A stretch of DNA of 64,000 nucleotides from a virus, in the IMG/VR virus record IMGVR_UViG_3300014806_000004. One strand, written 5' to 3'. Positions 8,176-62,513 of this stretch are shown in pieces. Numbering within the stretch: the stretch's first letter is position 1; the number at the start of each line of letters is the position of its first letter. The notes below the pieces were generated by a model that made no database searches, was not told where the DNA came from, and saw only the letters and a program-made list of their open reading frames with translations. Position numbers and translations under genes: made by a program.

Positions 8176-8772
8176 TTATAGAAATATTGTCAATAATAAA
8201 TGACAGATCGGGAGCGTTAATAGCTGCTTTAGAAATGACCCCCACTAATTCTTAAATTTTGCTAAAATGCTACCATGTATCATTTGAACCCCATCTGAGG
8301 TTTCAGGATTAGGCTATGTTACTAATACAATTACAGCAGGTTCTTTTTCTACTGCAAAAGAAACAGTTCCATATGATGAAATTCCTCCTCCAGCCCTGAC
8401 TGAAGAATTAAATGCCTTTATTTTTAACCAACTCCCTGTTTCAATTTGGCTTATATTTTCTGCAATAGTTGAAAAACTATCGGTTGCCGCAGTTTCTACT
8501 CCCTTGTCAGTGACTGCGGTCGCTATTAGGGCTTTGCCCTCACTGACATCGGTAAAAAGCTCATCAATAGCAGATTGAACATTAGTGGCTTTCATGCTTG
8601 AAGTTTCATTATTATATTCTATTGATGATGCAGTAAGATTTTCATTATCTTCTTCATCAAATTCAATAGTATAAGGCCCTGATCCTAATGTTTCTCCCAT
8701 TTCCGCGCTACCGCCTCCTGGCACGGTAATAGCATTTTGGTTTTTAACCTATCCAGTTAAAATACATTCCAT
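8176..8772 (-). CDS. Tail-fibre-like protein (ATNVQSAIDEL motif)
   Basis: RBS GAAAGGAG. The motif MKATNVQSAIDELFTDV is a common N-terminal signature of phage tail-fibre and tailspike proteins. Three in-frame TAGs. Confidence 0.45.
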
Positions 8773-8892
8773 AGATATTTTCTCCTTTCATCTAAAACCT
8801 TTAAAAAAGTACACTTTACTGAACTTGGTCAACTATATATAATTTATCTACTCTTTCTTTCATATATATTTGAAAAGAGTAAGATACTCACT

Positions 8893-8924
8893 TTTGGGAA
8901 AAGGGTTTCTTACCCTTTTCCCAA
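8893..8924. terminator. Bidirectional rho-independent terminator
   Basis: The hairpin gggaaaagggtttcttacccttttccc has T-tracts on both sides. Confidence 0.55.
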
Positions 8925-9097: not shown

Positions 9098-10855
9098 TTG
9101 CCTAAATGTATTTTAGCTGAGTAGGGTGAAAAAGGTGGAGGCTCTCTTTTTCTTGTAAAAATTGAAGTAACCACTCCCCCTAATAAAACAAGCTATCTTG
9201 CTGGTGACACATTTAATCCTGCTGGAATGGTAGTTACCGCATCTTACGGCATGGATGGTGTTATTGTAACAACAGCAGAAGTAACTGGATATCAAGTTAC
9301 TCCAAATCCTTTAACAGATGGGGTTACTGAAGTAACTATTACTTATTCAGAACTCGGTGAAACTTATCAAACTACCTAGAAGGTAACTGTTATTCATAAA
9401 CTTCTTAGTATTCAGGTTACTACTAACCCAACTAAGATGACCTATGAATATGGTGACACCCTTCAAACAACAGGAATGGTAGTTACAGCGAGTTACTCTG
9501 ATAGTAAAAGCGCGGCTGTTACAGGTTATACGTGCTCACCAACATCCTTAACTACAGTTGGCAGCTAGCAAATTACTGTTTCTTATACAGAGAATGAAGT
9601 AACTCAATCTGCGAAATTTACGGTAACTGTTGAGCGTAAATCTGTCGCTAAACCAACCTGGAAAAGTAATCTTACCTATACAGGTAATAGTCAATCAGTA
9701 AGTGGAACTTCTTATTGGAATAATTTCAATACCACTTATATGACGATTGGCGGAACTACTTCCGCTACTAATGCAGGAACTTATACAGCTACATTTACTC
9801 TAAAGAGCAATTATAGATGGGCTGATAAGACAACCGATAACCTTGATGTAAACTGGATTATTAATAAAGTCGCGGGTAGTTTAACTGTAAATCCAACTTC
9901 TGTTGCTCTTGATGGAGATAATTATAGTACTGGCGTTAAAGTTACTATTACTCGTGCGGGAGATGGAGCTATTAGCTATACTCCAACTAGCGTTACCGGT
10001 CTTACCCTCTCTTTAAGTGGTAATATTCTTACTATTAAAGGTGATGGCAGTACGGCTATTTCTTCTACTACGATTACTATTAAAGTCGCGGCCGGAACTA
10101 ACCATACTGCTCCAGGTAACAAGACTGTTACAGTAACAGCAAGCTATTGGGAGTGGGGTTCTGAAACTGCTACTGGTGATGCTAAGTGGTGGGCTGGATT
10201 AAAGACCTGGGCAGCTAAGGCCTCTTCCAGCGAAAGAAAGAAATGCGTAGGTAAAAAGAAACTCGTAAGTCTTTCTAGTGCGGTACTTGGCGCTAACGCC
10301 GCTACAATGATTTGTATTGGCGCTGATTAGGACGGAACTGGAACATTAACTTTCCAGACTGCGGGAACTTTACCTAATACTACAACATTTGGTAGTAACG
10401 CGTTATGGAATGGTTCAACCGCTCAATCCTTGTGCAATGACTTTGGTAATAGATGTAGCGCAACCGCTTCTATTAAATCTGTTACTAAGAAGACAAGCTC
10501 TGCTAGTAATGGTAATTAGAATAATACTGCGGATGTTCAAACAACTGCAAAATGTTGGCTACCTTCTGAATGTGAGATGGGATTTACTAGCTCTAACGGC
10601 TATGCTAGTTCTTATTAGGAGTGGACTGTTGGAGGAAGTTAGACAGCCTATAGTTACTATACAAGCAACTCTACTAGAGTTAAATACCAGATGAACGCCA
10701 ATGGTTCGTTGACGAATTCAACGATGCGGTATTGGGAACGGTCCCGTTACTACAACTACTCGACCTACGTTTGCCTTGTCGGCAACGATGGATCTGCGAA
10801 CCACTACTACTACTACAACAGCTACGGGCTGGCGCCGGCTTTCGTCATTGGATAA
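9098..10855 (+). CDS. DGR variable (target) protein: Ig-like (BIG-type) repeats plus a C-terminal lectin-like variable domain
   Basis: TTG start 7 nt after AGGAGGT. It has repeated Ig-like modules (TYEYGDTLQTTGMVVTASYSDS...VTGYT...VSYTE). About 7 in-frame TAGs. The last 35 codons form the variable repeat (VR) and end at TAA 10853. Confidence 0.75.
10739..10842 (+). repeat. DGR variable repeat (VR), in-frame at the 3' end of the target gene
   Basis: It is 104 bp long. It matches the TR at every position except 15, and at all 15 the TR base is A (VR has T, C or G). The GC-rich 3' end GGGCTGGCGCCGG is IMH-like. Confidence 0.85.
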
Positions 10856-10936
10856 TACAGCAAAATAACAATTCGGGACAGTTAAGATTAAATTATCCAA
10901 TAAAAAAATTATATATTCAAGTGAGGGAAATTTTAA

Positions 10937-11275
10937 ATGTCTGTAAAAGTAAAGGATAGACACCTATCAAAACAAGACTGTCTTTATAAAGCCCGTGAAT
11001 TGGTTGGCTACATTTTAGTCTTAACTCGTCCCAGAGAATTTGATAAGGATGGAAAACAAATCTGCAAACCTGGACTGCTTGGAGAGGGTCAACCTCTTCA
11101 AGCGTTCGGGTACGATATAATTAAATGCGGAAAGGGTATACACGCTTGCTGCTATGAGGCGTGTAAGATAAACTTAAAAGATAAAGAAACCCTTACAAAG
11201 AGAAATGAATATCACAATAAAGCGATTGAATATTGTGATAGTATATTTCGACAAATCGACCTATGTATTTATTAG
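10937..11275 (+). CDS. Accessory variability determinant (Avd)-like small protein
   Basis: The 112-aa basic ORF lies between the VR and TR, which is the canonical Avd position. There is no direct sequence match, so the call rests on context. Confidence 0.45.
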   Translation: MSVKVKDRHLSKQDCLYKARELVGYILVLTRPREFDKDGKQICKPGLLGEGQPLQAFGYDIIKCGKGIHACCYEACKINLKDKETLTKRNEYHNKAIEYCDSIFRQIDLCIY

Positions 11276-11461
11276 TATGCTCAAAACAGCAAAAAGAAAA
11301 GAAGATCTTTTGAACATCTAGCTAGATTGACTAAGAAAGTAAAAGAATCAATCCAAGATAGAAAAAATAGAGATAAACTTATAGTCGAGCATAGATATTC
11401 GGCTCCTAAAACTCATAGGAGAGGTCGATAATATTTTTCTGCGGTTAAGTTCTGTATCTTT

Positions 11462-11565
11462 CGGTCCCGTAACTACAACAACTCGAACAACGTTTGCAAT
11501 GTCAACAACGATGGATCTGCGAACAACAACAACTACAACAACAGCAACGGGCTGGCGCCGGATTA
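11462..11565 (+). repeat. DGR template repeat (TR)
   Basis: Non-coding and rich in AAC codons (cgtAACtacAACAACtcgAACAAC...). It is the adenine-containing partner of the VR and lies directly upstream of the RT gene. Confidence 0.85.
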
Positions 11566-11870
11566 GATGGAGCTATCATGTTGCGAGTTAAGCTGCGGAG
11601 CAGCGCAAACGAGCAACGCCTAAATAGTACCCCGGAGTATATTATTATCCATCTAATTAAGGTTTACTCTGGATTGCACCCACTATGTGGGGAAGAGATT
11701 GAGAGACCGTTAAAGAGCTTTGCTCTACAACTATCGAATAATATACTATAGGTAGATCTGCCTTTTCATCTAAGGAGAACTTAACCATTTCACTGAAAAA
11801 GTGGATAAAGTAAGACTGTAGACGTGGAGCTCGAGTAGCTACCACTATAGCTACATGATAAGGAGAAAGT

Positions 11871-13087
11871 ATGTCTGAAATAAACCAAGATACTGCTTTC
11901 GAGCGTTTTTGTAGTTTTGACGCTATGTATGATGCGTCTTATAAGGTATGTCGAAACATTCGATGGAAAGATAGTACAATTAATTTTGAAGAGAATAGGA
12001 TAGAAACAATTTTAAAAACAGAAGCTGATCTGCGAGCGTGTGAATACGAATAGCTTGTGTTTAGTTGTTTTTCGATAATCGAACGAGGCAAACCAAGAGA
12101 TATAAGAGCGTGTCATATCAACGACAGACTGGTACAAAATGCGTTATGTGAACAAGTTTTATTACCAGAATTAACTCCTAGATTTATCTACGATAATTGT
12201 GCGACTTTAAGAGGAAAAGGAATAGACTTTGCTTTAAAAAGAGTAAAGAAACACCTTCAACAAGCTCATAGGGAATATGGATTAGGAAAAGATTTTTATG
12301 GATTAAGAATTGATATTCAAAAATATTTTGATTCTATTGACCATAAATCTTTAAAGAAAGCAGCTAAACGTTTGATAAAAGATAAAAGAATTTATCAACT
12401 ATGCTGTTATTTAATAGATACATTTTCTTTTAAGCTAACAAAAGATTCCTCTCCCATACCAGGAAAAGATTATTATATTAGTAAACGGCACAAATACACG
12501 AGAATTAGTACCACTAATTTTAAGCCTGGCCGCAAATACTATGAATATGATAATAAAAGTCTTGGATTAGGAAGTCAAACATCACAATTATTCGCATTGC
12601 TAGCATTGAACGAAATTGACCACTTCATCAAAGAAGAGTTACATATTAAGTATTATGGTCGTTATATGGATGATTTATATTTATTCCACAATGACAGTCA
12701 ATACTTAGCCGAATGTGAAAAGAGAATAGAAGTTCGCTTAAATAAGCAAGGATTAAAGATGAATAAGAAAAAGACTACTATTACTAGAATCTCTCCTATT
12801 CACGCGGACGGCAAACGTCACGCTCCATTAAAATACTTAAAGTGGAACTTTTATCTCACAGACACTAATCATATAATACAAATTCCTTTTAAAAAGAAAG
12901 TGGCTCATTAGCGCAGAAAGTTAAAGAAAATGCAAGCGCTATGGCTAGAGGGTAAAATTTCAACAGATGAAATTTAGAAATCCTATCAAGGTTGGAGGGC
13001 ACATATTTCTAAAGGAACTTGTTTTTATATAATTCAAGATATGGACAATTATTTTCGTTCATTATTTAAAGGAGTTGAAATAAAGTA
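11871..13087 (+). CDS. DGR reverse transcriptase
   Basis: RBS AAGGAGAAAG. The N-terminus (SYKVCRNIRWKDSTINFEENRIETIL...ERGKPRDIRACHINDRLVQNAL) is typical of DGR RTs. It has LGLGSQTSQLFALLALNEID (DGR-type motif 4 with SQ) and YGRYMDDLYLF (YxDD). Three in-frame TAGs. TAA stop overlaps the next ATG. Confidence 0.85.
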
Positions 13088-13750
13088 ATGTATATTCTAT
13101 TAAATAGAGAGAATGTAGTAGTTGATATTCTTTCAGAAGCACGTTACATTAAACTGCAATCCTCAAATGGTATTGTCGTTGCCTGCGAGGAAGAAGAGGG
13201 AACTGGGGTTATCGGCTCAAATGGAGATACACATTATACTCTAATTAAAGCCGATGTATTAAATCAATCTAATGCTGTAAAAGTATTAGAGATAGAAACA
13301 ATTCCATCAGATGTTACTCCTAATTATTCAATATATAATCAAGAAGATGGAACATTCACTTCTGATTTAGATTAGGCAAAGTATGACAAACAAGAGGAAA
13401 ACAAGAAACTATTCGCAGAGTATCTTGCTACCCACCCACTAACTTGGGTTGATGGAAAAGAATATGGAATTACGTAGGAGGACCAATCTGAGATTAGCTT
13501 AAATCTCAATCAATATCAAGTCGCTCTCGCGGCTGAAGTAGAAAATCCTACGCTTGAGTGGCACGCTCGACACGAAGAATGTGTGCCATGGAATTTAGAG
13601 CAATTATCCGCTCTAAGTTTAGCTATTTCAAATGCGGTATATCCTAAATATCATTTAATGCAAGAATATAAAACTTAGATATTCGAAGCTGATTCAATAG
13701 ATAAATTAAAAGCTATTGAATTAAACTATGAAGATACCGACAGTGAGTAA
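13088..13750 (+). CDS. XkdW/DUF4376-like protein (family usually encoded beside tail-fibre genes)
   Basis: The sequence LATHPLTWVDGKEYGIT-TAG-EDQSEISLNLNQYQVAL...LEWHARHEECVPWNLEQL resembles PBSX XkdW-type proteins. Three in-frame TAGs. Confidence 0.4.
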
Positions 13751-14186
13751 AAATATAATTCTATTTGCAGTTGGAGGAACTCTATATTACGGTATAGAGT
13801 TCCTCTATAAAACTTTTATCAGCTTTGGAACTTGTCATTGGTCTATGTTCTTATTGGGCGGCTTATGCTTTTTATTAATAGGACTAATGAATGAGAACGC
13901 TCTTTGGGAAGAATCTATTCTTACTCAAGGAGTAAAAGGCTCTTTAATCATAACTGCTTTAGAATTAATCTTTGGTCTAGTATTAAATGTAAAACTAGGC
14001 TTAGGTATTTGGGATTATTCTCACGTTCCATTGAATTTTATGGGGTAGATTTGTTTACCATTCTCTATCGCCTGGTTCTTTTTAAGCCTTTTGGCAATAG
14101 TATTAGACGACTACCTAAGATGGAAATGGTTTGGAGAAGAAAAACCGCATTATCATTTATATAGTAAACCTCCTTGCGAGAAATAA
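13728..14186 (+). CDS. Membrane protein with a WDYSH motif (DUF1113 / putative-ABC-transporter-type-IV-like)
   Basis: Multi-TM protein with LGIWDYSHVPLNFMG. One in-frame TAG. It overlaps the upstream gene. Confidence 0.4.
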
Positions 14187-14189
14187 AAA

Positions 14190-14228
14190 ATGGGGAGAAC
14201 CTTTGAAATTAAGGTTCTCCCCATTTTT
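14190..14228. terminator. Bidirectional rho-independent terminator between convergent operons
   Basis: The hairpin ggggagaaccTTTGAAATTAAggttctcccc is flanked by an A-run and a T-run. Confidence 0.6.
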
Positions 14229-15011
14229 TTATTTTACATCAATGATAATAATAGCAATATCATTTGTTGGTTTTTCTTTTGTATAAAAGGTAATTCCAAC
14301 CCCAACTGATGCATCAGCGTGATCAATTTTACTATACTCTTTAAGATTAGAAGTATAACTAATAATAGGTGGCACATTACCTGCTTTTCCGCAAGTTAAA
14401 GAAGTATTGGAATAAGTATATGTATACATATCTTCATTTAATACCCAACCTGATGCAGAAAGAGTTGCTGGATAAGCTGCCGTAGTACTTCCACTAATCT
14501 AGTTATCTGTTTCCAATTTGCTATACACATCTAAATTAGTTCTCGCCCCTGCTGCATTAATTGCCCCGGTTCCACCAACTGAAATTGGAAGCGTTCCAAA
14601 TTGCGGAGCGCCCGCTGTAGCAGCAAATAAAGCGCCAGTTCCTTGCAATCCTGTTACACCATTCTCACTATTTCCGATAACAACCTAACCGGCCGCAATT
14701 TCAACCATCTTTACCGCATTAGTTCCATTACCAATTAATAAAGCATTTACAGTTAGACTATTATGTCCAGTTCCGCCCTGAGCTACAGTGGCAGTCATAT
14801 TTTTAAGAAAAATATCATCAATATCAATCTCAGTAATATCATTCTTTAGAACTTGAGCAGCATAGGCATTTACCTGCAAACGCCCACCTTCTTCATTACT
14901 AATATCAATAAAGAGATTTCCTTTATCTTCTGTGAAATAAGCGTATCCTTCATGAAGAGGTACACTATTCAAATTATCTTCTGGTCCTCGAAAAATCTTA
15001 AATAAAGCCAT
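14229..15011 (-). CDS. Tail fibre protein (XkdV-like N-terminus MALFKIFRG...)
   Basis: RBS AAAGGAGGG. The N-terminal MALFKIFRGPEDNLNSVPLHEGYAYFTEDKGNLFIDIS is the characteristic start of Firmicute phage tail-fibre proteins. Two in-frame TAGs. TAA stop. Confidence 0.55.
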
Positions 15012-27432: not shown

Positions 27433-27469
27433 AGGGATAATAGGGGAGGAAATCTCCCCTATTATCCCT
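27433..27469. terminator. Perfect palindromic hairpin overlapping the tape-measure stop
   Basis: agggataataggggaGGAAATctcccctattatccct. Confidence 0.5.
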
Positions 27470-30400
27470 TTCTTCTATTTGCCCATTGAGTAGCATCATC
27501 AGCCAAACTACGAATAGCATCTTGAATTTCATCAGAAGATGTCGCATTTGGGAACTCAACTCGCTCAATATTTATATACGGTTCAACTGTGTTATCTGCT
27601 GGAGTAATCTAAGTATTAGATCCTAATCTTGATGCCATAAGATTAGAAATAGATAGTGCATTTCCATCAAGCGCTTTCTCTATAGAAGCTATAAAACTAG
27701 GTTCAAAAGCTCTTATAGCAGAAACCGCCGCGAGAATATTTTTCGTATCTTCTTGATTTAAAACTAACTCTTTTTCGTGCAAGAAAGCTAATTTAGCATT
27801 ATCAAATTCTCCAGTATAACCTCCTGTATCAAATCCGCTTATTTGACTTTCTTTTAACCAGCCATATGCAGAATTATTAGACTATACATGAATCGGATAT
27901 GGTCTGCCTTTAGCTATATTAGTTATTTTAACTTTCTTGCCGGGCCCACGTCTACCTGCTGGATCTGTGCCATAAGAATCATGATAATAAGTTCCACCAG
28001 TATAAATGACTTCGTCTCCTACTTCTGGGATTCCATTGCCACTTCCAGCTCCTCCACTGGAAGATCCGCTATTACTATTGCTAGAGTTATTATCAGAAGA
28101 TTGATCTGAATTAGCGGGAGGTAAATCATCTTTATCTATTCCTCCAGCGCTTTCTATTGTATTTCCAGCTGCTCTAGCAGCCTCCTCAAGAGCCCTTATA
28201 TATTCTCTAACTGATTCAGCCATGTCTAAATATTCTTGACTTAAATCTTGAATAGTGCTTATCTATTCTAACATCTAAGTGACAGCTTTCGATCCTGCAT
28301 CAGAACATAAATCAGTAGAAGTTGAAACATCGTCAATATAATCTTTTAAATCATCAAGGCTTGTTCCAGTCTAATCAGCCACTCCAGAGACAGTAGTTTG
28401 ATAATCTTCCATTGCTTCACTTGCTTCGTCCATGGCTTTAGATAGAAAATCTTCAAAATTTCCAGCATTAGAAGTCATATTAGCAAGATCTTTTGCAAAA
28501 ACATTATCAAATAAATCAATAAGTTTTGTATTACTTCCAACTATATCTTGAATCTATTCATTATCGGATAATAACAAATCAATAATACTAGAGCCAGAGT
28601 TAGCTATAATATCCTGAATTTCTTGACTTGTAATTCCAGTTAGATCACTTACCTTATCTCCCGCAACAATAGCCATATCAATTAAGGCTTTATTACCGGC
28701 TTCGGTCATATCCTAAATAGCGATCTGTTTTTCGTTCTCTAGATCCTTAACCTTCTGCGTATAATAAGAATAGATTTCTTGCGCGCGGGCAGATCTTTCC
28801 TCATCAGTCAAGGTCATATCAGAATAAATCTCTTTTATTTTATTCTGACATTCCTGCCAAGTAGAAATAATTTCTCTAGTAACATCTTCAACCTATTGTT
28901 TAGCTATATTATACCATTCATTCTCTGCATCAAGTAAATTCTATTCCGCATCTGCTATCTAGCTCGCATCTGCGGTGTATTGATAATTCCAGTTACCTTG
29001 ACTATCTCTTACTAATCTAAGCTGATTCTTTGCATTTTGAGCATCTTCAAGAGCCATCTGGGCCTAAAGAACATTATACTTGGCTTCAAGAATTTCTAGA
29101 TCATATTCAGATAGAGTATTATTCTCTCTACGAATGTCAATTTCTTCTTGTAACTATTTCAACTAATCTTTCATTTTAGAATTAGTGGCTTTATCAATAT
29201 CCTATTGAAGTTTATTATACCAAGAAGATACTTCATATGCTTCATTTACTTTATCTAAATATCTATCTTCTTGCTCAATGTAATGATCGAACTTGTCTTG
29301 TAGCAAATCTAAGCCAACTCCGCCAGAAACCGCCTATCCAAATTCATATACGGCTCTTTCAATAGCCTAAGTATACATTTCTTGTGCAGTTTCCATAGCG
29401 GCTTGCGCGGAACTTAACATCGCCTATTGAGCTTCATTATATTCTTCTAATAATGCATCTCGATTAGCTTTTAAACCATCATATGCTGGATCTGTTTCAT
29501 CACCATCTAATGCATCTAACGCACTCTAGGCTTCTAAAAGTTCCTATTTAATGCCGTCGTACCACTATTTATTTAACTGCGCATTTGCTATTTGAGCTTT
29601 CATTGTTTCTTCGCTTACTTTTTGGAGCTATTCAAATCCTTCTTCGGTTTTATATGTAACCCCCTAAAGTGTATACAATTCTTTTATAAGTCCAAGAACT
29701 GATTCATTATGATCAAGTTGATCAGTAAATTCAGCGAATCTTTCAGATGCAGCGTCTAATGCATTTGGCAACATTTCTTCAAGACCCTCTACCCAATCAA
29801 GTAGAGCTTCTGCGGTAGAAATTATTTTACCCTATAAATCAGATATTTTACTTATAATTCCATCAATACTAGTCGCATCCGTTGCGTTAGCCAATTCTTC
29901 TTGATAACTTTTAAGTGTTTCTTCATAATCCTTGATTATTTTTATATTTTCGTTCACACTATTTTCATCAATACGAGCGACTTCAATACCATGAGTTAAT
30001 TCATCACCAAATGATTCTGCAATCTTTTTAGTTAATTCACGAACAGCATCTTTAGCATCTTTTATTTCTATTACAACTTCAAGTTTATATTCAATCTAAC
30101 TCAATCTATTGTCTGCGATGCTTCTCTCTAGTTCTTCCTATTCGTCCTTTACTTCTTGAATTTTGTCAAGAGTTTCTTCATATTGGGCGAGAGCATCCTA
30201 ACGAGCTTGAAATAATTCATCAGCAGCTTCCTTTTGTAACTGCCAACTATCATATTCTGCCTATCTAGCTTCCTATTCATCTTTAGTAAGATTACTAAAG
30301 GTAACTAAAAAAGCATTATAATCTGCCAAGAAATTATTATTATAATCATCTATTATAGATTGAAGAACACTTTGATAACCTTCAATTTCTCCATTTTCAT

Positions 30401-33400
30401 CAAAAATAAGAGAATTATTAAACAACCCTTGAAGATCTGCCTAGTCTTTTGTAAGATAAGTTTCAGCTTCATTAAGTAGTTTGTTATAATTAGCTTGCTA
30501 TTTCTCTAATTCTTGAAGTTCTCTCTAGTATGCTTGAAGTTTATTGGCGCCATAGGCTCTATCTATATTATTTCCAATATCATCTAATAAATCGTTCTAA
30601 TTCTCAATTTCGCGAGTTATTTCATGGTATCTATCTTCAATATCCTTTAGAGTCTTTTCATCTTCTTCGTCATACTTAGTGCCTTCATTATCTCCGCCAC
30701 TTGAACTTCCCTTTACTCCTTCTATAGCTCCATCAATAGAATCTAATAATTTGCTCTAGGCTATTTTTGCTGCTGCTATAGCCTCATTATACCCATCAAT
30801 ACTCCCCTAATAAATGGCCCTTAGCGCTTCTCCAACTGCCTAAGATTGCTTAGCTTCAAGTGCCTCACTAGCATCACCATAAATATTTAAATCGTCTGCG
30901 GTTACAGGTTCTACATCTAAATTTGCAGTTAAAGAATTTAAGAAATCATCAGCGTTACTCGTATCTATTGTTGTTGCAGCCGAACTATCAAAAGAAACAG
31001 CAGAAGTATCAAAATCTTGCTTAGTAACATTATCAGTTCCTATTTGAGATACTTGAATTCCAGTAGCATATGCCGCATCTCTAATTTTTTCAAGATTAGC
31101 AAGAACATTTTGAGTATTTAACTATACATTAGTACTCATGTTCTGCGCGCCCTAAGCAGAATACTCGCTAACATTAGTCCATAAAGTCTACTAATTTGTA
31201 TCTTGTGCGGTTAAACTATTGACCTAATCATCTAACATTTCTCCATTAGCAAGATTCTAAGCATTTACATATCCCGCTAATAAAGTTCTCTTCTGCTCAT
31301 CTGATAATTCGTTTATAGTTAATTCTCCAGAAGCTAGCTGATTAGCGATCTTAAGCGAAGCTTCAGCCTCTCCTCGTTTAGCCTCTAAAAGAGAAATAAG
31401 ATTTTGAAGCATATTAGATTTGGTATCAGCATCAACAGCTAATTGCCCCTAAGAACTATTATAAAATGCTTGATACATCTCATCTGTTAAAGCAAATGTA
31501 CCATCCCTTAATAGTTCCGCGTTAGCTATAAAACCTGGATAGATAGATTCAATAGCCTTAGCTGCTTCTCTACTAAAACTCCAAACTTGTTCTCCAGCTT
31601 CATTGGTAGTCTAGCTTACTCCATCAGAAATAGCATCGAATACACTTACAATTCCATCAACGGAATTTTCAATCTAATCTAATTGATTCTAAAAATTTAA
31701 TTCTGCATTTATTTGTAACTAAGCTGTGCTAGAATCTATATCATCCTATAAACTACTAATTAGCTACTCTGCTAAAGTTACAGTATCAATTTTATCTTGA
31801 GCTTCTTTTGTCCCATACTCAAATGCACTAGCTACGTTATCCGCAGTTTCGGTTTTAAAAGATTCCCAATCAAAATTTTCACCTAACAAATCCCAATCAA
31901 TCGTATAATTATCAAGATTAAATTCTTCTCCGCCATTTAAGCTACCTTGATAATCATTATACGCTTCTCGAACTTGTTCCCAAGCATAAACAACTTTTTC
32001 TGCACGTTCTAATTCAGAATCGCTATATTGATTTAAAATATCCTATTGCTCAGTTATTCTCTTTTTTGCTTCACTAATCTAATCTATTAATCCATTATTG
32101 ACAGCCTAATAGGACTCATTTATAATCCTCTATAAATAACTCTATTGTTCAACTAAAGTCATAGCAAGGAACTAATTAAAATCAATAATTCCTTTTTCTT
32201 GATTTCCCCAATCAACAGTTTTAGAAAGTGATTCTAATCCTTCTCGATCTAAATCTCTATCTCCAAGAGTTTCTAAGGCAGATTGTGCAGTAGTTAAAGA
32301 TTCTGTTGCGTTTTCAACTTCGGAAATAGCATCAGTATATTTTTTAGCACTGTCATAGGCATCCTAAAAAGTCTCCTATGTTAAAGCACCCCAATTTAAT
32401 AAATTTAATACAGAAGTATCATAATTTTCATCTGTAAAAATAGATTCAAGATTACTTTTTAATTCTTCATCATTGACTAATTCTTCAACCTCTAAAATTG
32501 CGTCATAAATATCTTTAAAGCCACTAATATCAGGATTCAGAGAAGTAGATACTAAATCATTGATTATATCGTTTAATTCTTCGCCTTCATACCCAGCAGA
32601 AGTGAGCGCCTCTGTAACTTCGTTAACCCAAATTTTATACTACGCTAAACTTGATACTTGATCATCGGTAATAGTCTAATTATTAAACTCTCCAAGCTAT
32701 ACCCGAATAGTATTTATACTCTCTTTAGTTTCTTTATATTGAGTGACAACCTCTTCCATTTTATCTCGCCACTCAACAGCAGCATTGTAAAGTCCAGATG
32801 CTCCTCTTTCCGAAACAGTCATGCTATTATTCATCAAATTAATAGCATTATTTAATTGATCATAAAAATTAATTAATTCTTCTGTATTATTTGGGTCTAT
32901 AGAAAAAGCTAAGTTTCTTCTTCCGCCAATTACATTGTCATTCCAACTACTATATAAAGCGTCCACATTATTGAGAAGAATATTAGATGCAGTATCTTCT
33001 TCGGTGCCATTCCAAAAATCATTAAAACCAGTAAAAGACCCCTCATAATTTCCACCAAAATATACGTGGCCCACGCCTTCTCTCGCGGTTTCAAGAATGA
33101 GAGTTTCATTCGCACGTAACGCTTCTTCTTGGGACTACAAAGTTTCCTAAAGTTCTCTTCTTTGAGCTTCTTGAGCAGCTTTTAAAACACTATTATAATC
33201 TTCATACTATCCACTTAGTCTAGCTAATGCACTGCCTTCTAAATCATACGCTTCAGCCAACTAACGAGTTAAATCATCTAACTCTTCTTTTCCATCCCCA
33301 GTTTCTTGATAAGTAGATAAGGCATTTTGAGTAGATTGAATTAACTCTCTATTCGCTTGTGCTTCTTCTTTTTTTGCATTTGCCGCATCAATAGAGGCCT

Positions 33401-36188
33401 AAGCAGCAGCCAAGGTTGCTTCATGCTATGCTTTTATAGCACTTGTTATTGCAGTAATCGCTATTATTGCTACCATAATTGCAGCAGTTAAGATGCCGGA
33501 AGCCATAGCGGCTTTCTGCTTCGCCATAGCAAGCTATTCTGTCGCTAAAGCCTCTACTGATGTTGCCGCGGCGTCCGCCGCTGCTGCAACAGCATGAGCA
33601 GTAGTTAACATATTTAAAGTTTTATAAACAGAAATAATAGAGGGTAGTAACATACCAAGAGAAGTAAACAAAGCTACAATTCTTTCAGTTGAAGTCATAT
33701 CTTCATCAGAAAAAATTCTTCCAATGCTCTAAAAAGCATTCATAATCATAGTTAAACTAGAAAGAGAACTTCCAACCTAAACCAATATTGTAGCCCAATC
33801 TCTCGTTGGTATTAATGCTTTTGTAATTACACTAGGGAACTTCGCTAACAATTCCTAATATCGAGCCTCTTGTTCAGTTGTTCTTGCAGTAACAGACTCC
33901 AATTTTGTTAATTCATTAATATAAGAAGTAACTACTCTTGGATCGGCTCCCATAGTCTATAAAATAGTCCCAAGTTCACGAATTTGCAATTTTGCATTTT
34001 GAGACTAATTTTTTAACCCCTCTAATTGCTAAGTCAGCCATTCAATCTAAGCATAATTATGTTCTTTGCCCGTAACACTAGATAATAAATTACGAAGGCT
34101 GTCTCTAGTCGCAGTTCCAGCGCTTTCAAGTTTTTTAAATTCTTGATACACTGTATCAAGTTTTGTAGATTGCTAAATTAAACTAGTTAACTAAGTAGTA
34201 ACATCATTATAAATTTTATCAAGGTTACTATTAGCTCTTATATTTAACTAAATTTGATTACTTTTATTTCTACTATTAAATTTATTTATTTCTGCTTTAA
34301 CTTCTTCTTGCCAGCCATCTTTTATTCCTATATTAAAATAAATAGTATCTCTAAGATTTAATACATTTTCCCTAGACTAAATCTACTACTAAGAATATGT
34401 CTTTAACTAATCTTGCAAAATACTTAATTTTAACTGTTCTGTCTAAATTAATCTACGACCATTAGCATCCATCGCGTCGTAGTTACTATTTATTTGGCCC
34501 TATATATTAGCCTAGTCAACCATAATATTAAAAAGATTTTTTTCAGCCTAAGACATAGAGTTTGTTAAGCCTAATTGAGTTGCTATCTCAGCCGCTGATG
34601 CCTACAAATTTCTCGCTCTATTCTACTCTAATCCAGATAGAACTTTTATATTAGCCACCATAGAACGCATTGATTCAGCAATCTTATTTCCATAAATCCC
34701 ATTAATCAACAAAGCGGTACTAGCTAAAATACCATTTAACCCTCCCATTGCATCAATGGCGTCTGCAATACCAGATAAAAATGGAGTTAAGACATTATCT
34801 GCATTTATATACAAATCTGGATTTATGACACTATCATAAATATCCTCAGCAGATGCTTTTACTCTATCTCTAGCAGCTTCCCAAGATTCAGCATAAATAT
34901 CTGCCTGTTCCTAAAGAGATCCCTCTGCTCCATAAGCACTAGCTAAATTCTCCTAAAAGAAATCCCAATTATCCATAAGTGTAATAAGACGAGTATATTG
35001 GCGAACTCCGGCTACGGTCTAAGCCAAAGCAATCTACTAGTCATTAGATAAGGTCTCCCATTTTGAACCCATTTCATCAAGTAAGGTATCCATAGTTTTA
35101 ATCTCACCATTAACATCAAAAATATCAATACCCACTTTTTCAAGAGCTTTAGAATATTTATTTAATGTAGTGCCATCATCGAGAGTTTCTCCAAGATTTA
35201 AGCCTTGGATACGAGCAAATAAAGTTCTAAATGCTGTACCTACTGTATTAGCAGACTCACGTGTCGTAGCAGTGACAGTAGCAAGAGCAGAAGCAGCATA
35301 TTCGTAACTTAATCCAACTGTATCTGCTACAGAGGCAAATTGTTGGATACCTTCTGAAATTTCATCAGAGCTAGACGCTGTATCGGCGCCTAAACGCACC
35401 ATTACATCAGCATAATATTCAAGACTCTTACTTCCATCATAGAAGTTGTTCCAAACTGCGGTCAGCTGATCCGAAGCGGTCTATGCACTAATTCCTGCGG
35501 CATTAGCCATTTTAATAGTAGTTTCAGTTCTATCTAAAACTTCCTATTCAGTAAGACCCTATTGATAATAAATCAAAGCAGCATCACTATATTCAACAGT
35601 AGTTGTACTTAATGCTTTTGCTGCTTCATTTGCCTATTGAGCAAATTTAGCCATGTCTTCCGCAGAATTTTCAGTAACTATACGAATATTTGTTAATGAT
35701 TCATTTAGATCTTGTGCATACCCATAAGCTGATTCTATGGTTCCCACAAAACTATTTAACGCGGTGGAGGTAATCTGCCATCTCATAGTATTTTTCATAG
35801 TAATCCATAACTAATCAAATATTTTGCCAGTGCGCAATGCTGGAAGCTCCGCTTTTTGAATCGCTGTTGCTACATTTAAAAAAGCCTTTTGCCCCTCGGT
35901 ACCAATCGAAATTAACGAGTTGGCATAATCTTTAAGAGTTCTTCCGCTAGATTTTAAACTATTTTCAAAAGCTACTAAATCTAACTTTCCAGTCCCTTGA
36001 TTAAATGCCTAATGCATATAAGTAGATAACTCTAGCGCAGACTAAGAAGCTTGTCGCAATTCTGCTGTAACTTTAGAACCGGCACTGATTTTATTTAAAG
36101 ATTGAACTGCCTCGTTTACTGCTCTGTAAAGTTCAGCAGTATCAACATCAAACCCAATCTAATAATTTAATCTTCTATTATTAGCCAC
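27462..36188 (-). CDS. Tail tape measure protein (2908 aa)
   Basis: GTG start 9 nt after AAGGAGG. One frame (top coordinate congruent to 2 mod 3) links the ORF fragments 35037..35402, 34623..34814, 32697..33074 and 27882..28223. The N-terminal region has the TP901/phage TMP signature (DTVGLSYEYAASALATVTATTRESANTVGTAFRTLFARIQG...) followed by long coiled-coil sequence. Every internal stop I checked is TAG. Confidence 0.85.
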
Positions 36189-36223
36189 AATCCTTTTCCT
36201 CCTTTATCACCCATAAAACAAAT

Positions 36224-36293: not shown

Positions 36294-36833
36294 TTAATCT
36301 TTTCCAACCACATCTTTAATTACTGATAAAGTTTCAAGATTCTCACCATTTTTAATTTTTTCCATTATATCAGTAATATATGTATCTAATCCAGAAGCAT
36401 TTTTATTCATCATTTGGATAATGCCTGCGGCAGAGTTATTATATCTTGCTATATCGCTTAAAGTATCTCTAACTAAGTCTTCAATAAAAGACAATTCATC
36501 TACTGGAATAGCACTTCTAACTGCATCAATAACACCATTAGTCTCTAGTGTATCATAAGTTTTGGCAATATTTTCATGCACATCTTCTTGCTCAAAAACA
36601 ATTCCACCATACCATCTGCAAATAGCAATAGCAAAATAAGTTTCTACTCTTACCGGACTAAAACACCCAGTCATCTCATCTATCGCTAAATCTGCGACAA
36701 AAGTAATAAGATTTGTTTTATCTGCAATCGGAAGATAATTAACCACAGATAAAATCTTATCTTCTCCAATTTTTACTTCTGTATATTTAATTTTAGGCTC
36801 CAAACCCAAATCTTTAAAAGTAATTTCACTCAT
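36294..36833 (-). CDS. Putative tail assembly chaperone (position immediately upstream of the tape-measure gene)
   Basis: 179-aa acidic TAG-free ORF with no direct homology call. The assignment rests on the conserved chaperone-then-TMP gene order. Confidence 0.45.
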   Translation of the reverse strand: MSEITFKDLGLEPKIKYTEVKIGEDKILSVVNYLPIADKTNLITFVADLAIDEMTGCFSPVRVETYFAIAICRWYGGIVFEQEDVHENIAKTYDTLETNGVIDAVRSAIPVDELSFIEDLVRDTLSDIARYNNSAAGIIQMMNKNASGLDTYITDIMEKIKNGENLETLSVIKDVVGKD

Positions 36834-36898
36834 TGTAAAAACTCCTTTATCTCATTTATATTTTTATTATACTAGAAAAATTAACTATTGTCAAGTTT

Positions 36899-38400: not shown

Positions 38401-39792
38401 TTAAATGGTGTCATCGCTAACAGAGACTAACTTATTGCGCATTTTTGCGCCAGAATAAGTGCTTGTGCTTTCTGCAAAACTGAGCTTATTATTAATAGTA
38501 TAACTCTTCTCAAAGTCTCCGTTAATCTTAGTAATCTTAGCTGTAATAGGAGTTGTATTACTCTCCTTAGTAAGAATTACTAATAGGCCATCTGCCAATT
38601 CTGCGCCATCTACGGTTTGAGTCTTTGTATTGCCCTCAATACTGTCATCAGTAGAGAAGTATTTCTCATATGCTGGGTTAGTTGTTACTACAGTATACTT
38701 GGTACTATCGCTCTCTACTGGAATTTGGAGGCTAATTTGTGCGGCTTCTGGAATTGTATCTCCATAAGCCTCAGTATCATAAGCCTTTCCTGTTACAATA
38801 CCAGTTACATCAAGTTCCGCCTCTGTGGCACTGTTAGAAACAAAATTTACAGTTACATCAGCAGCTTCACTCTCATAAGTACCAACATTCTCAGAGCATG
38901 GCTCACGAGAGCCTTCGGTTTCCCCAGTTTCATCAGTAATTACCTGAATAGCGGCAAGAACTTTATGAGTTTGATCAAACTTAGTGTAGTCTGGGAAAGC
39001 GTCCATTGTGAATGTAAAGGTAGATGGATCACCGTTAGCAGCCATGCTGAATGTGAAGTTACTCTGAACCTTACAGTTAGGAATAATAAATTCAGCAGGC
39101 ATATCTACGCCATCGCTCTCACGGCGGAATAGAGTAGAAGCTTCAAGATAATAGTTTCCACCAAACTTATCAGCGGTAATCTCAATCATCTGGGCGCCAC
39201 CAGTGCGCTTTACATAATAGTCAACTAAAACGATAGTACCAGATGGGAGCACTCCCGCATGAGAATAACAAGTTAAAGTTGATTTTCCGTCCTCTGTATA
39301 AGAAACAGAAACAGGAATGCATGGTTCAGCATTAACTTGACCATCATCTCCTAATACCATTACAAAAATGTCAGCAGAACGATGATACATTTCATTTTCA
39401 TGATCTGCAAATCCATTCCAGCAAGCTTTATCAGGAATTACGATAGTGTTAGCTGTTTCAACTTCTACCTGAGAAGTTTGATGAACGTAAATTGGAGCTT
39501 CTTTTGTTGCATCAAGCAGACCTGCACCAGAAAGAATAGAGAAGCTCTCTGGAGAAAGTAAAGCATCTTCCATTGTAAATGTTAGAGTACGCTCACCTTC
39601 CCAAGCAATCAATCTAGTATATCCACGTCCGCCCTGTGCGTATACAGTTGTTGCAGCACCTTCAAGAGTAGAGGTTCTTAAAGTGTCAAAGTACAAAACT
39701 GGTTCATTTTTATAGAACTTACGATTACCTAAAGTCTGATAGCTTTTGGCACGAAGTACTACATCGCAAATCTCACGAATACCAAAACGCAT
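38401..39792 (-). CDS. Major tail (tube) protein candidate with a C-terminal Ig-like extension
   Basis: 463-aa TAG-free ORF with RBS AAGGAGGAAT. It sits between the neck genes and the chaperone/TMP. The N-terminal MRFGIREICDVVL resembles siphovirus major tail proteins, and the C-terminal Thr-rich beta region looks Ig-like. Confidence 0.5.
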   Translation of the reverse strand: MRFGIREICDVVLRAKSYQTLGNRKFYKNEPVLYFDTLRTSTLEGAATTVYAQGGRGYTRLIAWEGERTLTFTMEDALLSPESFSILSGAGLLDATKEAPIYVHQTSQVEVETANTIVIPDKACWNGFADHENEMYHRSADIFVMVLGDDGQVNAEPCIPVSVSYTEDGKSTLTCYSHAGVLPSGTIVLVDYYVKRTGGAQMIEITADKFGGNYYLEASTLFRRESDGVDMPAEFIIPNCKVQSNFTFSMAANGDPSTFTFTMDAFPDYTKFDQTHKVLAAIQVITDETGETEGSREPCSENVGTYESEAADVTVNFVSNSATEAELDVTGIVTGKAYDTEAYGDTIPEAAQISLQIPVESDSTKYTVVTTNPAYEKYFSTDDSIEGNTKTQTVDGAELADGLLVILTKESNTTPITAKITKINGDFEKSYTINNKLSFAESTSTYSGAKMRNKLVSVSDDTI

Positions 39793-39806
39793 GAGCTAAT
39801 TCCTCC

Positions 39807-40532
39807 TTAATTTTTAGGATGTATATCTCGCATCCATGATTCAACTGGTTTATCTGGTTTGCCGCCCGCAAGACGAACCCGCAAGTCAACATCCCATTCA
39901 ATAAACGCATTATATCTTTCCATCAAATCAAATATCTAAAACATATTTAGATTTAAGCAATCCTCTAAACTCATTGTATTAGATCCGATTGTCAAGATAG
40001 ATATATAGCGTGTTAGAACACTCTCATTATTTCCTTTGCTTTTGATTTCTGCTACTTTTCGTCTACCGCGCATTAACTTTTCAGCAATTTCTTTAGCTCG
40101 GTCATTAGCTGGATTATAGATAACATTATTTCCCTAAAATAGACTGTTTACACACAAAATCTCTTTTAGTACGCTTTGAAAAATATCAAAGTTATTATCA
40201 TCTATTAACAAAGGCTAATTTTCTCCTTGCTTAGTTAAAATTATTGAATTTCTAGTTATTACTGGTATATAACCAGGAAATAATAATGTAAGTAGCATAA
40301 TAACAGCATTTTTTTTATCTTTATCCTGTGACTATTCTAACACCTTCATCAATACTTGAAAATTAGTTAATGATGATAAAAGAGTTTCGTCCTATATTAA
40401 TGATTCTTTATCTAAACATAAATATTGAACTGCCATAAAAAATTTTGTCTCTCCCATAAGAGCTATCTCTTTAATGACGGGAACGTGAATAGTAAGTTGT
40501 AATTCAGGAATGGGAATATCAATCCCGGCCAT
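39807..40532 (-). CDS. Hypothetical neck/tail-completion protein
   Basis: 241 aa with a verified frame and 6 in-frame TAGs. Its stop overlaps the RBS of the major tail protein gene. Confidence 0.35.
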
Positions 40533-44593: not shown

Positions 44594-44612
44594 TCTTCTT
44601 CACTCCTTCCAA

Positions 44613-45302: not shown

Positions 45303-45315
45303 TCTTTAATCCTCC

Positions 45316-62119: not shown

Positions 62120-62513
62120 AAATACCCCTCTCAATAATGAGAGGGGTATTTTTTTATTGTCATTTGAGCGGCCCGCGCTTGGGCGGTGCGGGCCGAATTT
62201 TTTTCTTTGTAAATGTTGCACAATTTTGGCGGCAAAAAGTTGTGCAATTTGCCATCTTGTAATTCTCCCAAAAGTATGGTATTATTATCATGTCAGGAGG
62301 GAAGGGCCAAGAAATCAAGAGGTCGCGAACTCTTAGAAAGTAAAGGAAGAAAATGGGTATTTGTGTTATAAGTCGAGCGAACGCCTTTGGAATAGGCCAT
62401 TCCATCGTCCAGTAGCTTGCAATAAATCGCAACAAAATTTCCTTTTCCTCTTGACACCAAGCCTTAAATGTGCTATAATAATACCATCAAGAGAAGAAAG
62501 GACTTGATAGATT

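What the first reader, a model, noticed from the sequence alone, without database searches (positions are those of the whole stretch)
9098..13087. Complete diversity-generating retroelement whose RT and target both need TAG read-through
A 104-bp template repeat (11462-11565) and an in-frame 104-bp variable repeat at the 3' end of an Ig-like-domain gene (10739-10842) match at every position except 15. At all 15 mismatches the TR base is A, and no non-A position differs. This is adenine-specific mutagenesis. The TR is built of AAC codons, and the corresponding VR codons are TAC/CAC/GGC/CTT.

The cassette has canonical order: target, Avd-like ORF, TR, then an RT with DGR-type motif 4 (QTSQ) and YMDD. 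The RT has 3 in-frame TAGs and the target about 7, so this DGR can only be expressed in the recoded translation state.

The target is on the opposite strand to the tail operon, and its VR C-terminus reads NHYYYYNSYGLAPAFVIG (a lectin-like variable surface).
Basis: seen in the sequence. Interest (0 to 1): 0.85.

Follow-up and report, generated by a model that had tools for sequence, protein, structure and literature searches.

The report
Active hypermutation cassette in recoded phage
This is a real, complete and evidently still active diversity-generating retroelement that rewrites the tip of a phage surface protein, in a gut phage that reads the TAG stop codon as glutamine; both features are already known from other phages, so it is a good new example rather than a new kind of system.

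Summary
A template repeat (TR, 11462-11561) and a variable repeat (VR, 10739-10838) at the 3' end of an Ig-like/C-type-lectin gene differ at 13 positions, all TR adenines (P=2e-7). In 26 related phage contigs, TR/VR mismatches are 511 at adenines against 11 elsewhere. Twelve genomes with identical TRs all have different VRs, and private non-A TR changes are copied into the cognate VR, so the element is active. The RT is closest to the Bordetella DGR RT and has LGSQTSQ and YMDD. The Avd-position ORF is a basic four-helix bundle with no detectable sequence match to Avd. The TR flanks and the 300-nt spacer form a covarying RNA matching the published DGR RNA elements. TAG is read as Gln across the phage, and the RT (3 TAG), Avd-like gene (1) and target (7) all need read-through. 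However, a non-recoded relative carries the same cassette, so recoding looks lineage-wide and incidental. Relatives also carry a second, TAG-free target just outside the window. Amber codons in DGR RT genes (Zeta crAss-like phages) and paired DUF6273 targets are already published. Verdict: new member of a known kind.

The parts
8894..8924 (+). Hairpin plus T-run (terminator-like) that bounds the + strand island on its upstream side
   Evidence: 13-bp stem with 6 GC pairs, followed by TTTTTTGT
9098..10855 (+). DGR target gene 1 (585 aa; TTG start 9 nt after AAGGAGG). It has two Big_3 Ig-like domains, further beta-rich repeats and a C-terminal DUF6273 / C-type-lectin-fold domain. It carries 7 in-frame TAG codons (9122, 9377, 9566, 10328, 10517, 10616, 10640).
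   Evidence: (Big_3 5e-12; DUF6273 1e-10, 42.1 bits against a cut-off of 23.5)
10739..10838 (+). Variable repeat VR1 (100-nt core), in frame, encoding RSRYYNYSTYVCLVGNDGSANHYYYYNSYGLAP
   Evidence: 13 mismatches to the TR, all at TR adenines; hypervariable between 98%-identical genomes.
10826..10838 (+). GC-rich run GGGCTGGCGCCGG at the 3' end of VR1 (the matching TR copy is 11549-11561). It is IMH-like and marks the 3' limit of information transfer.
   Evidence: homology ends here in all relatives. The flanking VR sequence CTTTCGT against TR ATTAGAT is a fixed difference.
10937..11431 (+). Avd-position accessory gene (164 aa, pI 9.7, 1 in-frame TAG at 11273). Predicted as a four-helix bundle with an inserted beta-hairpin.
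   Evidence: pLDDT 89; top fold match 2rld, 23S rRNA IVP family, E=0.09. No Pfam or PDB sequence match.
11444..11453 (+). 5' strand of the distal RNA duplex (GUUAAGUUCU), just upstream of the TR. It pairs with 11776-11785 and is cPRT-stop-like.
   Evidence: 10 bp, 4 pairs with compensatory changes
11462..11561 (+). Template repeat (TR), non-coding, with 35 adenines in 14 AAC, 1 AAT and 5 single-A codons
   Evidence: conserved between relatives while the VRs differ
11563..11571 (+). Template-side strand of the proposed template:primer duplex (UUAGAUGGA), immediately 3' of the TR. It pairs with 11765-11773.
   Evidence: 9 bp, 99% of cells paired, nearly invariant, 1 compensatory pair. It starts one base after the TR/VR homology ends.
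11580..11617 (+). Stem-loop just downstream of the TR (5+3+5 bp with two internal loops and a GGA/GAA loop). This is the position of the Avd-binding stem-loop in described DGR RNAs.
   Evidence: 10 of 13 pairs with compensatory changes
11632..11672 (+). Hairpin (11632-11637 with 11667-11672) whose loop holds a second CAUCUAA motif (11650-11656)
   Evidence: Absent in L024/L025.
11765..11785 (+). Spacer segment that pairs with both flanks of the TR. Bases 11765-11773 (UUUCAUCUAA region) form the primer-side strand, with A11773 the candidate priming nucleotide. GG follows, then 11776-11785 is the 3' strand of the distal duplex.
   Evidence: The priming role is inferred by analogy with the Bordetella TR:Sp duplex.
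11789..11805 (+). Stem-loop next to the distal duplex, followed by A-rich sequence
   Evidence: 4 of 6 pairs compensatory. It matches the 'stem-loop followed by adenosines' of the cPRT stop element.
11817..11855 (+). Covarying hairpin immediately upstream of the RT ribosome-binding site
   Evidence: 7 of 12 pairs compensatory
11871..13088 (+). DGR reverse transcriptase (405 aa) with motif 4 LGSQTSQ and YMDD. It has 3 in-frame TAG codons (12051, 12909, 12975).
   Evidence: RVT_1 1e-16; phrog_1423 4e-84; best PDB match is the Bordetella bRT 8ub7, 1e-14, with motif 4 aligned
13088..14186 (+). Two further + strand ORFs in the same island: 220 aa with a weak DUF4376 match, and a 153-aa predicted membrane protein. 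Whether they belong to the DGR is unknown.
   Evidence: Both contain in-frame TAG.
14185..14229 (+). Strong, symmetric (probably bidirectional) terminator-like hairpin that closes the + strand island
   Evidence: 19-bp stem flanked by an A-run and a T-run

Best explanation
This is a canonical, currently active diversity-generating retroelement (DGR) in a gut phage of roughly 100-150 kb, probably infecting Clostridia, that reads TAG as glutamine in its late genes. How it most likely works: an RNA covering the 3' end of the Avd-like gene, the TR and the 300-nt spacer folds so that one spacer segment (11765-11785) pairs with both flanks of the TR. The RT and the basic four-helix-bundle accessory protein bind this RNA. 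cDNA synthesis is self-primed at about A11773, opposite the first base past the TR, and copies the TR faithfully except at adenines. The cDNA then replaces VR1 (10739-10838), with the 3' limit set by the GC run 10826-10838. This randomises 15 AAY codons and 5 single-A codons (about 1e20 possible proteins, none with a stop codon) on the C-type-lectin tip of an Ig-domain protein that is probably a receptor-binding or adhesin protein of the virion. In relatives the same TR also feeds a second, remote, TAG-free target about 7 kb beyond the window's end. Because the RT, the Avd-like protein and target 1 contain in-frame TAGs, they can only be made once TAG is decoded as Gln. I read this as a by-product of the phage-wide recoding of late genes, not as a DGR-specific device. 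Shown by the data: the repeats, the adenine specificity, VR turnover between genomes, TR-to-VR concerted change, the RT type, the lectin fold, RNA covariation, and the TAG=Gln equivalence. Inferred: the priming site, the role of the Avd-like protein, the virion location of the target, and late timing.
Against: No suppressor tRNA is present in the window, and none was found in the fetched parts of the closest relatives' genomes. The accessory protein has no detectable sequence similarity to Avd, and its fold match is weak (E=0.09). No DGR-specific RT HMM was available; the NCBIfam hits were all below cut-off and to other RT classes. Two close relatives (L028/L029) have a 1-nt insertion in an A-run of the RT, which is either a frameshift or an assembly error. 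Activity is inferred from differences between genomes, not from read-level variation or from experiment.
Confidence: 0.88

Rival explanations
1. The in-frame TAGs are a dedicated regulatory lock on the DGR. Recoding was selected in these genes so that mutagenic reverse transcription happens only after the code switch, late in infection or only in a permissive host, protecting the genome from untimely or off-target mutagenesis.
For: All three protein genes of the cassette carry TAG. The first RT TAG is at codon 61, upstream of all catalytic motifs, and the first target TAG is at codon 9. TAG at RT alignment columns 60 and 361 is shared by many relatives. The second target is TAG-free, so enzyme and one substrate gene are under different translational control. 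Recoding as a late-gene timer has been proposed for such phages.
Against: Relative L026 carries the same cassette, has no TAG in its RT and shows no recoding in the region. TAG number in the RT varies from 0 to 8 between relatives, at shifting positions. The TAG share of Gln codons is lower in the RT (0.17) and the Avd-like gene (0.12) than in tail genes (0.5-0.77). That pattern fits passive spread of TAG through late genes.
Confidence: 0.2
2. The cassette is a decaying relic. The A-specific differences record past activity, and the TAG codons are genuine stops that now truncate the RT and the target.
For: Under the standard code every cassette gene is broken. No suppressor tRNA was found in the window or in the closest relatives. 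L028/L029 carry an extra base in the RT.
Against: Sequence downstream of each TAG stays in frame and conserved, with the catalytic motifs intact, and TAG alternates with CAA/CAG in relatives. The whole structural module is recoded in the same way. Genomes 98% identical differ 15-fold more in the VR than elsewhere, and only at TR-A sites, and a private TR change is copied into the VR. That requires recent retrohoming.
Confidence: 0.03
3. The two repeats are an ordinary duplication, or are kept similar by gene conversion, and have nothing to do with reverse transcription.
For: Direct repeats of about 100 nt can arise by duplication.
Against: 511 mismatches at adenines against 11 elsewhere across 26 pairs, always with A on the non-coding copy. 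An adjacent DGR-type RT. A second VR matching the same TR with the same asymmetry.
Confidence: 0.01

Closest known systems
Bordetella phage BPP-1 DGR (mtd-avd-TR-brt)
   Same: Same gene order. Adenine-specific TR-to-VR transfer. VR at the 3' end of a C-type-lectin-fold receptor-binding-type protein. A GC-rich 3' boundary. An RT with the (I/L)GxxxSQ motif that is the best PDB match. [quoted passage not shown]
   Different: The accessory protein is not recognisably Avd by sequence, is longer (164 aa) and has a beta-hairpin insert and 8 Cys. The RT has an insert of about 50 aa before motif 4. The spacer is about 300 nt rather than about 140 nt. The target is Ig-like repeats plus DUF6273 rather than Mtd. 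All genes contain in-frame TAG. Relatives have a second, remote target.
[quoted passage not shown]
   Same: A DGR in a TAG-recoded gut phage. In-frame TAG in the RT gene. The GxxxSQ motif. Tail-fibre-type targets with a C-terminal C-type-lectin domain and, in some, Ig-like domains.
   Different: A different phage lineage. The terminase here is closest to large Firmicutes phages and Phass-1, not Crassvirales. According to that paper most Zeta cassettes lack an Avd gene. Here an accessory gene is present, and the target and accessory genes are also recoded.
Two-target DUF6273 DGRs of gut Firmicutes phages (nd4/nd12 'tentaclin' phages, PMC10743442; Faecalibacterium prophages Lelie/CP11, PMC11792537)
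   Same: One TR serves a large multi-domain Ig-containing target and a small single-domain DUF6273 / C-lectin target, with the VR at the C-terminal end of DUF6273. The same arrangement is seen here: target 1 in the window and VR2 in relatives.
   Different: Tentaclins have the lectin domain at the N-terminus followed by Ig domains; here the order is Ig then lectin. Those papers do not mention stop-codon recoding (the term searches found none). The small target here is about 56 kb from the cassette.
Phass-1 / Phassvirus TAG-to-Gln recoded gut phages (PMC10607447)
   Same: About 135 kb, a human gut source, TAG recoded to Gln mainly in structural genes, tRNA-CUA suppressors, a predicted Clostridia host, and 44% TerL identity.
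   Different: No DGR is mentioned for Phass-1. The relationship is only distant.

Membership tests
Diversity-generating retroelement (DGR) | A TR/VR pair whose differences are confined to adenines of the TR | tested here: met
   13 of 13 in the window; 511 against 11 across 26 relatives
Diversity-generating retroelement (DGR) | An adjacent RT of the DGR type: motif 4 (I/L/V)GxxxSQ and YxDD | tested here: met
   LGSQTSQ and YMDD are present. The best PDB match is the Bordetella bRT at 1e-14 with motif 4 aligned. No DGR-clade HMM was available, and other RT families score far below their cut-offs.
Diversity-generating retroelement (DGR) | VR within the C-terminal part of a target ORF, displayed on a C-type-lectin (or Ig) fold | tested here: met
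   [not shown]
Diversity-generating retroelement (DGR) | Ongoing retrohoming: the VR varies while the TR is conserved, and TR changes propagate to the VR | tested here: met
   The comparison is between genomes; read-level data were not available.
Diversity-generating retroelement (DGR) | A structured TR-flanking RNA (template:primer duplex, stem-loop 3' of the TR, distal duplex) | tested here: met
   Covariation above both controls. The correspondence to the published elements rests on position and topology; the function was not tested.
Diversity-generating retroelement (DGR) | Adenine-mutagenic cDNA synthesis by the RT-accessory-RNA complex | not testable with these tools
   Requires biochemistry or cDNA sequencing
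Avd (accessory variability determinant; Pfam PF05635, 23S rRNA IVP four-helix bundle) | Sequence membership of PF05635 | tested here: not met
   No Pfam hit for the protein or for its most distant relatives. No PDB Avd was hit by the family profile. Only 28 representatives were found in 1.84 billion proteins.
Avd (accessory variability determinant; Pfam PF05635, 23S rRNA IVP four-helix bundle) | A small basic four-helix bundle encoded between the target and the TR | tested here: met
   AF2 pLDDT 89, four helices. pI 9.7. The top Foldseek hit 2rld is from the S23/23S-IVP family, but E=0.09. Pentamer formation and RT binding were not testable.
TAG-to-Gln recoded phage (genetic code 15) | Long conserved ORFs interrupted only by TAG, with TAG aligned to Gln in homologues | tested here: met
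TAG-to-Gln recoded phage (genetic code 15) | A phage-encoded suppressor tRNA with anticodon CUA | tested here: inconclusive
   None in the window. Present in relatives L145/L146, the latter from the same contig as DGR locus L007. Not found in the fetched parts of the closest relatives, whose genomes were not fully retrievable.
Crassvirales (Zeta crAss-like phages) | crAss-type terminase and structural module | tested here: not met
   The best TerL matches are Enterococcus, Geobacillus and Alicyclobacillus phages and Phass-1; no crAss-like record appears among the listed top hits.
Tentaclins | [quoted passage not shown] | tested here: not met
   The domain order is reversed here: Big_3 at residues 109-178 and earlier, DUF6273 at 433-584, VR at the 3' end.
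Pfam DUF6273 | A score above the gathering threshold | tested here: met
   Target 1 scores 42.1 bits against a cut-off of 23.5. The small VR2 protein of relatives is not detected, although it shares the ...VC.V...G.A...GLAPAF motif.

The most novel reading that the evidence does not exclude
The code switch may act as a gate on hypermutation. The RT, its divergent non-Avd-family accessory protein and the fibre-like target can be made only once TAG is read as Gln, whereas the second, remote target is TAG-free. The phage would then confine mutagenic reverse transcription to the late, suppressor-active phase while expressing one diversified lectin under the standard code. This would be the first case in which genetic-code recoding controls a targeted mutagenesis system, with an accessory protein family that replaces canonical Avd.
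Probability: 0.2. Interest if true: 0.6.

Novelty: new member of a known kind. Interest (0 to 1): 0.35.

Why it matters
DGRs are the main known mechanism of targeted protein hypermutation in microbes, and standard gene callers and DGR finders miss them in recoded phages because the RT is broken into fragments. This locus is a clean, evidently active example outside the crAss-like phages. It has many natural variants: 26 full TR/VR pairs, and 12 distinct VRs on one TR. Its RNA covaries and supports the generality of the RNA architecture solved for the Bordetella element, including a concrete predicted priming site. Its accessory protein is undetectable as Avd by sequence, which is useful for widening DGR search models. 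The non-recoded relative with the same cassette gives a natural control for asking whether recoding changes when, or whether, diversification happens.

Tried and rejected
1. Nucleotide searches of the deposited-phage collection found nothing useful: one 97-nt hit for the cassette and no match for 24 kb of the structural module.
2. Rfam at gathering thresholds gave no hit anywhere in the window.
3. Pfam, PHROGs, NCBIfam and a PDB profile search gave no annotation for the accessory ORF. A profile search of 1.84 billion representatives reached only 28 proteins, and none of the distant ones checked is recognisable as Avd.
The models are therefore of database proteins: P0001 (99% identical) for the accessory protein and P0093 (60% identical) for the target domain.
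6. A scan of the window for further VR copies found none on either strand.
7. I looked for a conserved hairpin or cruciform downstream of the VR. The TTGGATAAT/ATTATCCAA inverted repeat in the window is not conserved in relatives, so I dropped it.
8. Sigma-70-type promoter matches were no more frequent than in shuffled sequence, so no promoter is proposed.
9. I hunted for the suppressor tRNA by walking out from both ends of the window in related contigs, using 5 of the viral-collection scans. This found a large tRNA array, and a CUA tRNA only in the more distant relatives. Stored-data limits stopped the walk.
10. I considered and rejected a crAss-like identity for the phage and tentaclin membership for the target.
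Full report
OBSERVATION. It is a gap-free direct repeat with offset 723, VR at 10739 and TR at 11462. With 37 adenines in 104 nt, the chance that all 15 fall on adenines is 2e-8. Comparison with relatives refines this. The two 3'-most mismatches (10839 C vs A, 10842 T vs A) are identical in every related genome, down to 65% RT identity. There the VR always reads GCTTTCGT (codons for the invariant ...APAF... motif) and the TR always reads GATTAGAT. They therefore lie outside the tract that is transferred. The diversified core is 100 nt (VR 10739-10838, TR 11462-11561), with 13 mismatches, all at adenines (35 A; P=2e-7). The VR is in frame, and the TR consists of 14 AAC, 1 AAT and five single-A codons. 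No substitution at these adenines can create a stop codon, and about 1e20 protein variants are possible.

THE PHAGE AND ITS CODE. Reading TAG as sense raises the content of ORFs of at least 100 codons from 9,938 to 26,251 codons and produces a 2,913-codon ORF with 100 in-frame TAGs. Reading TGA as sense does far less. PHROG matches identify portal, terminase, tail and tail-fibre genes on the minus strand. The terminase is 50% identical to those of large Enterococcus phages (VRE9_4, H1, EF1), 48% to Geobacillus E3 and 44% to the TAG-recoded gut phage Phass-1. This is therefore not a crAss-like phage. Relatives are binned with Oscillospiraceae, Eubacterium and other Clostridia MAGs, which is only a weak pointer to the host. 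In an alignment of 34 RT genes, 22 columns contain TAG in at least one sequence. The other residues in those columns are mostly Gln, and exclusively Gln in the conserved columns. In a few relatives, one of the glutamine codons of the GxxxSQ motif is TAG. The accessory ORF's single TAG also stands opposite Gln in most homologues. TAG accounts for 50-77% of Gln codons in tail genes, 39% in the target, 17% in the RT and 12% in the accessory gene. It accounts for 0% in four capsid-region genes and in the + strand early-type genes at 54-64 kb.

THE PROTEINS. The RT (11871-13088, 405 aa) matches RVT_1 and phrog_1423. Among all PDB sequences its best match is the Bordetella phage DGR RT (8ub7, E=1e-14), with bRT IGSLTSQLFAN aligned to LGSQTSQLFAL and YMDD conserved. 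NCBIfam models for group II intron, retron and DRT reverse transcriptases all score far below their cut-offs.

The ORF in the Avd position (10937-11431, 164 aa) has 91 close homologues, none annotated. It is predicted with pLDDT 89 as a four-helix bundle with an inserted beta-hairpin and is basic (pI 9.7). Its best structural neighbour is 2rld, a member of the 23S rRNA IVP family to which Avd belongs, but only at E=0.09. No sequence method links it to Avd. I call it Avd-like in role, not a member of that family.

ACTIVITY. Thirty-three related loci were recovered from phage contigs of 50-148 kb. Every one with both repeats shows the same asymmetry. Over 26 full-length pairs there are 511 mismatches at TR adenines and 11 elsewhere, six of them in the most divergent locus. 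Twelve genomes share an identical TR, and all twelve have different VRs. The window and its 98%-identical relatives L002 and L028 differ at 20% of VR positions but at 1.3% of the rest of the cassette. All VR differences are at TR-adenine positions except 10828, where L002 carries the same G-to-A change in its TR (window equivalent 11551). Private non-A TR variants in L003, L027 and L032 are likewise mirrored in their own VRs. This concerted change, combined with adenine-restricted divergence, is what ongoing retrohoming predicts and what a relic does not.

A SECOND TARGET. In relatives, about 8.4 kb downstream of the exonuclease gene (window 62508-63338), and so about 7 kb past the window's end, lies a gene of about 180-200 aa that ends ...YVC.V...GSA.......GLAPAFILDKN. 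Its last 82 nt of homology match TR positions 19-100 with 17-18 mismatches, all at adenines. It differs between close relatives, and it carries each genome's private TR variants. It has no in-frame TAG and no detectable Pfam domain. A large plus a small DUF6273 target served by one TR has been described for gut Firmicutes phages (PMC10743442, PMC11792537).

THE RNA. The TR-to-RT spacer and the 20 nt upstream of the TR are conserved and covary. Of 56 proposed pairs, 27 show compensatory changes, against 10.3+-1.9 in column shuffles (0 of 500 reach 27) and 3-6 when partners are slid by 1-3 columns; 96% of cells are paired (first pass). The elements are as follows.
- (i) A 9-bp duplex between 11563-11571, which begins one base after the TR/VR homology ends, and 11765-11773.
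- (ii) A 10-bp duplex between 11444-11453, just upstream of the TR, and 11776-11785. It abuts (i), so the TR is looped out between two adjacent helices.
- (iii) A 13-bp interrupted stem-loop at 11580-11617, immediately 3' of the TR.
- (iv) A stem-loop at 11789-11805 followed by A-rich sequence.
- (v) Hairpins at 11632-11672 and 11817-11855.

[quoted passage not shown] By that analogy I infer A11773 as the priming nucleotide and G11561/A11562 as the first templated base, which matches the observed boundary of homology. This inference is not tested.

RECODING AND THE DGR. The first RT TAG is at codon 61, before all catalytic motifs, and the first target TAG is at codon 9. I do not think this is a DGR-specific device, for three reasons. 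Relative L026 (65% RT identity) has the same cassette, with 21 of 22 mismatches at TR adenines, yet has no TAG in its RT and shows no sign of recoding in 13 kb. The TAG count in the RT ranges from 0 to 8 among relatives. The cassette is also less recoded than the tail genes. The likely consequence, expression only in the suppressor-active late phase, follows from the published model for recoded phages and is inferred, not shown.

The decoding agent is unresolved for this lineage. There is no tRNA in the window. Relatives at about 68-78% identity encode a CUA-anticodon tRNA with a Gln-like D-arm. The closest relatives show an array of at least 27 tRNAs (plus a tmRNA in one) without a recognisable CUA tRNA in the parts I could retrieve.

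COMPARISON AND NOVELTY. The element works like the Bordetella BPP-1 DGR and passes every DGR membership feature that could be tested. The exception is sequence membership of the accessory protein in the Avd family. Amber codons inside DGR RT genes have been reported for seven Zeta crAss-like phages (PMC12386605). DUF6273 lectin targets, including large/small pairs, have been reported in Faecalibacterium and other gut phages. The papers on Phass-1 and on the gemstone clades of recoded phages do not mention DGRs. New here are the lineage, the divergent accessory family, the recoding of all three cassette genes alongside a TAG-free second target, a non-recoded sister cassette, and covariation support for the DGR RNA architecture. 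That makes it a new member of a known kind, of moderate interest.

Noticed in passing
Outside the window: L086:18014-18616 (also L084, L087-L090). The equivalent window coordinate would be about 70.9 kb.: A second DGR target. A small (about 180-200 aa) protein ending ...GLAPAFILDKN has an 82-nt VR2 that matches TR positions 19-100 with 17-18 mismatches, all at adenines. It varies between close relatives and has no in-frame TAG.
   Followed up: yes
window 36294-36851, 38401-39813, 43541-44599, 44613-45305 (all on the - strand): Four capsid-region genes, including the phrog_2729 virion structural protein and a likely major capsid protein, contain no TAG at all. Neighbouring tail, portal and terminase genes encode 30-77% of their glutamines with TAG. 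Recoding therefore spares what are probably the most highly expressed structural genes.
   Followed up: partly
window 27462-36203 (- strand): A single 2,913-codon ORF with 100 in-frame TAG codons in the tail module. Its function was not examined.
   Followed up: no
window 8772 (- strand start) and 9098 (+ strand start): The DGR target and the divergently transcribed neighbouring ORF (8176-8787, fibre-like) both begin with the motif x(K/E)CILxxQ. Several DUF6273 target homologues elsewhere do too (MSLKCILQGQ, MSVKCILTGQ). It may be a shared virion-docking N-terminus.
   Followed up: partly
L139:15515-20321, L141, L147-L149 (relatives, beyond the window's right end): A large tRNA array (at least 27 genes, including Gln-UUG and Gln-CUG) and, in L149:2025-2340, a tmRNA gene with tag peptide DNDYFENYLAA.
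   Followed up: partly
L139:16750-17300: A tRNA-Asp(GUC) that is intact in L141 is split in L139/L140 by an insertion of about 480 nt after the anticodon, which looks like an intron, possibly carrying an ORF. ARAGORN does not call it.
   Followed up: no
L145:19124-19214 and L146:19064-19154: The amber-suppressor candidate (anticodon CUA) is 91 nt long, with an insertion of about 19 nt after the anticodon stem and a Gln-like D-arm.
   Followed up: partly
L028:6482-6484 and L029 (window equivalent 12352): The RT gene of two 98%-identical relatives has AAAAAAAAG where the window has AAAGAAAG, that is one extra base. This is either a frameshift or a homopolymer assembly error.
   Followed up: partly
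L026 (contig IMGVR_UViG_3300045988_145614): A relative with 65% RT identity carries the same target-accessory-TR-RT cassette but shows no TAG recoding in 13 kb. This is a natural standard-code counterpart.
   Followed up: partly
window 11650-11656 and 11767-11773: The motif CAUCUAA occurs twice in the spacer RNA, and both copies could pair with UUAGAUG just 3' of the TR. L024/L025 lack the first copy. Alternative RNA conformers are possible.
   Followed up: no
[not shown]
   Followed up: no
window 8894-8924 and 14185-14229: Two strong hairpin-plus-T-run elements bracket the + strand island (target, accessory gene, TR, RT and two more ORFs), which is inserted between minus-strand tail-fibre-type genes.
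   Followed up: partly
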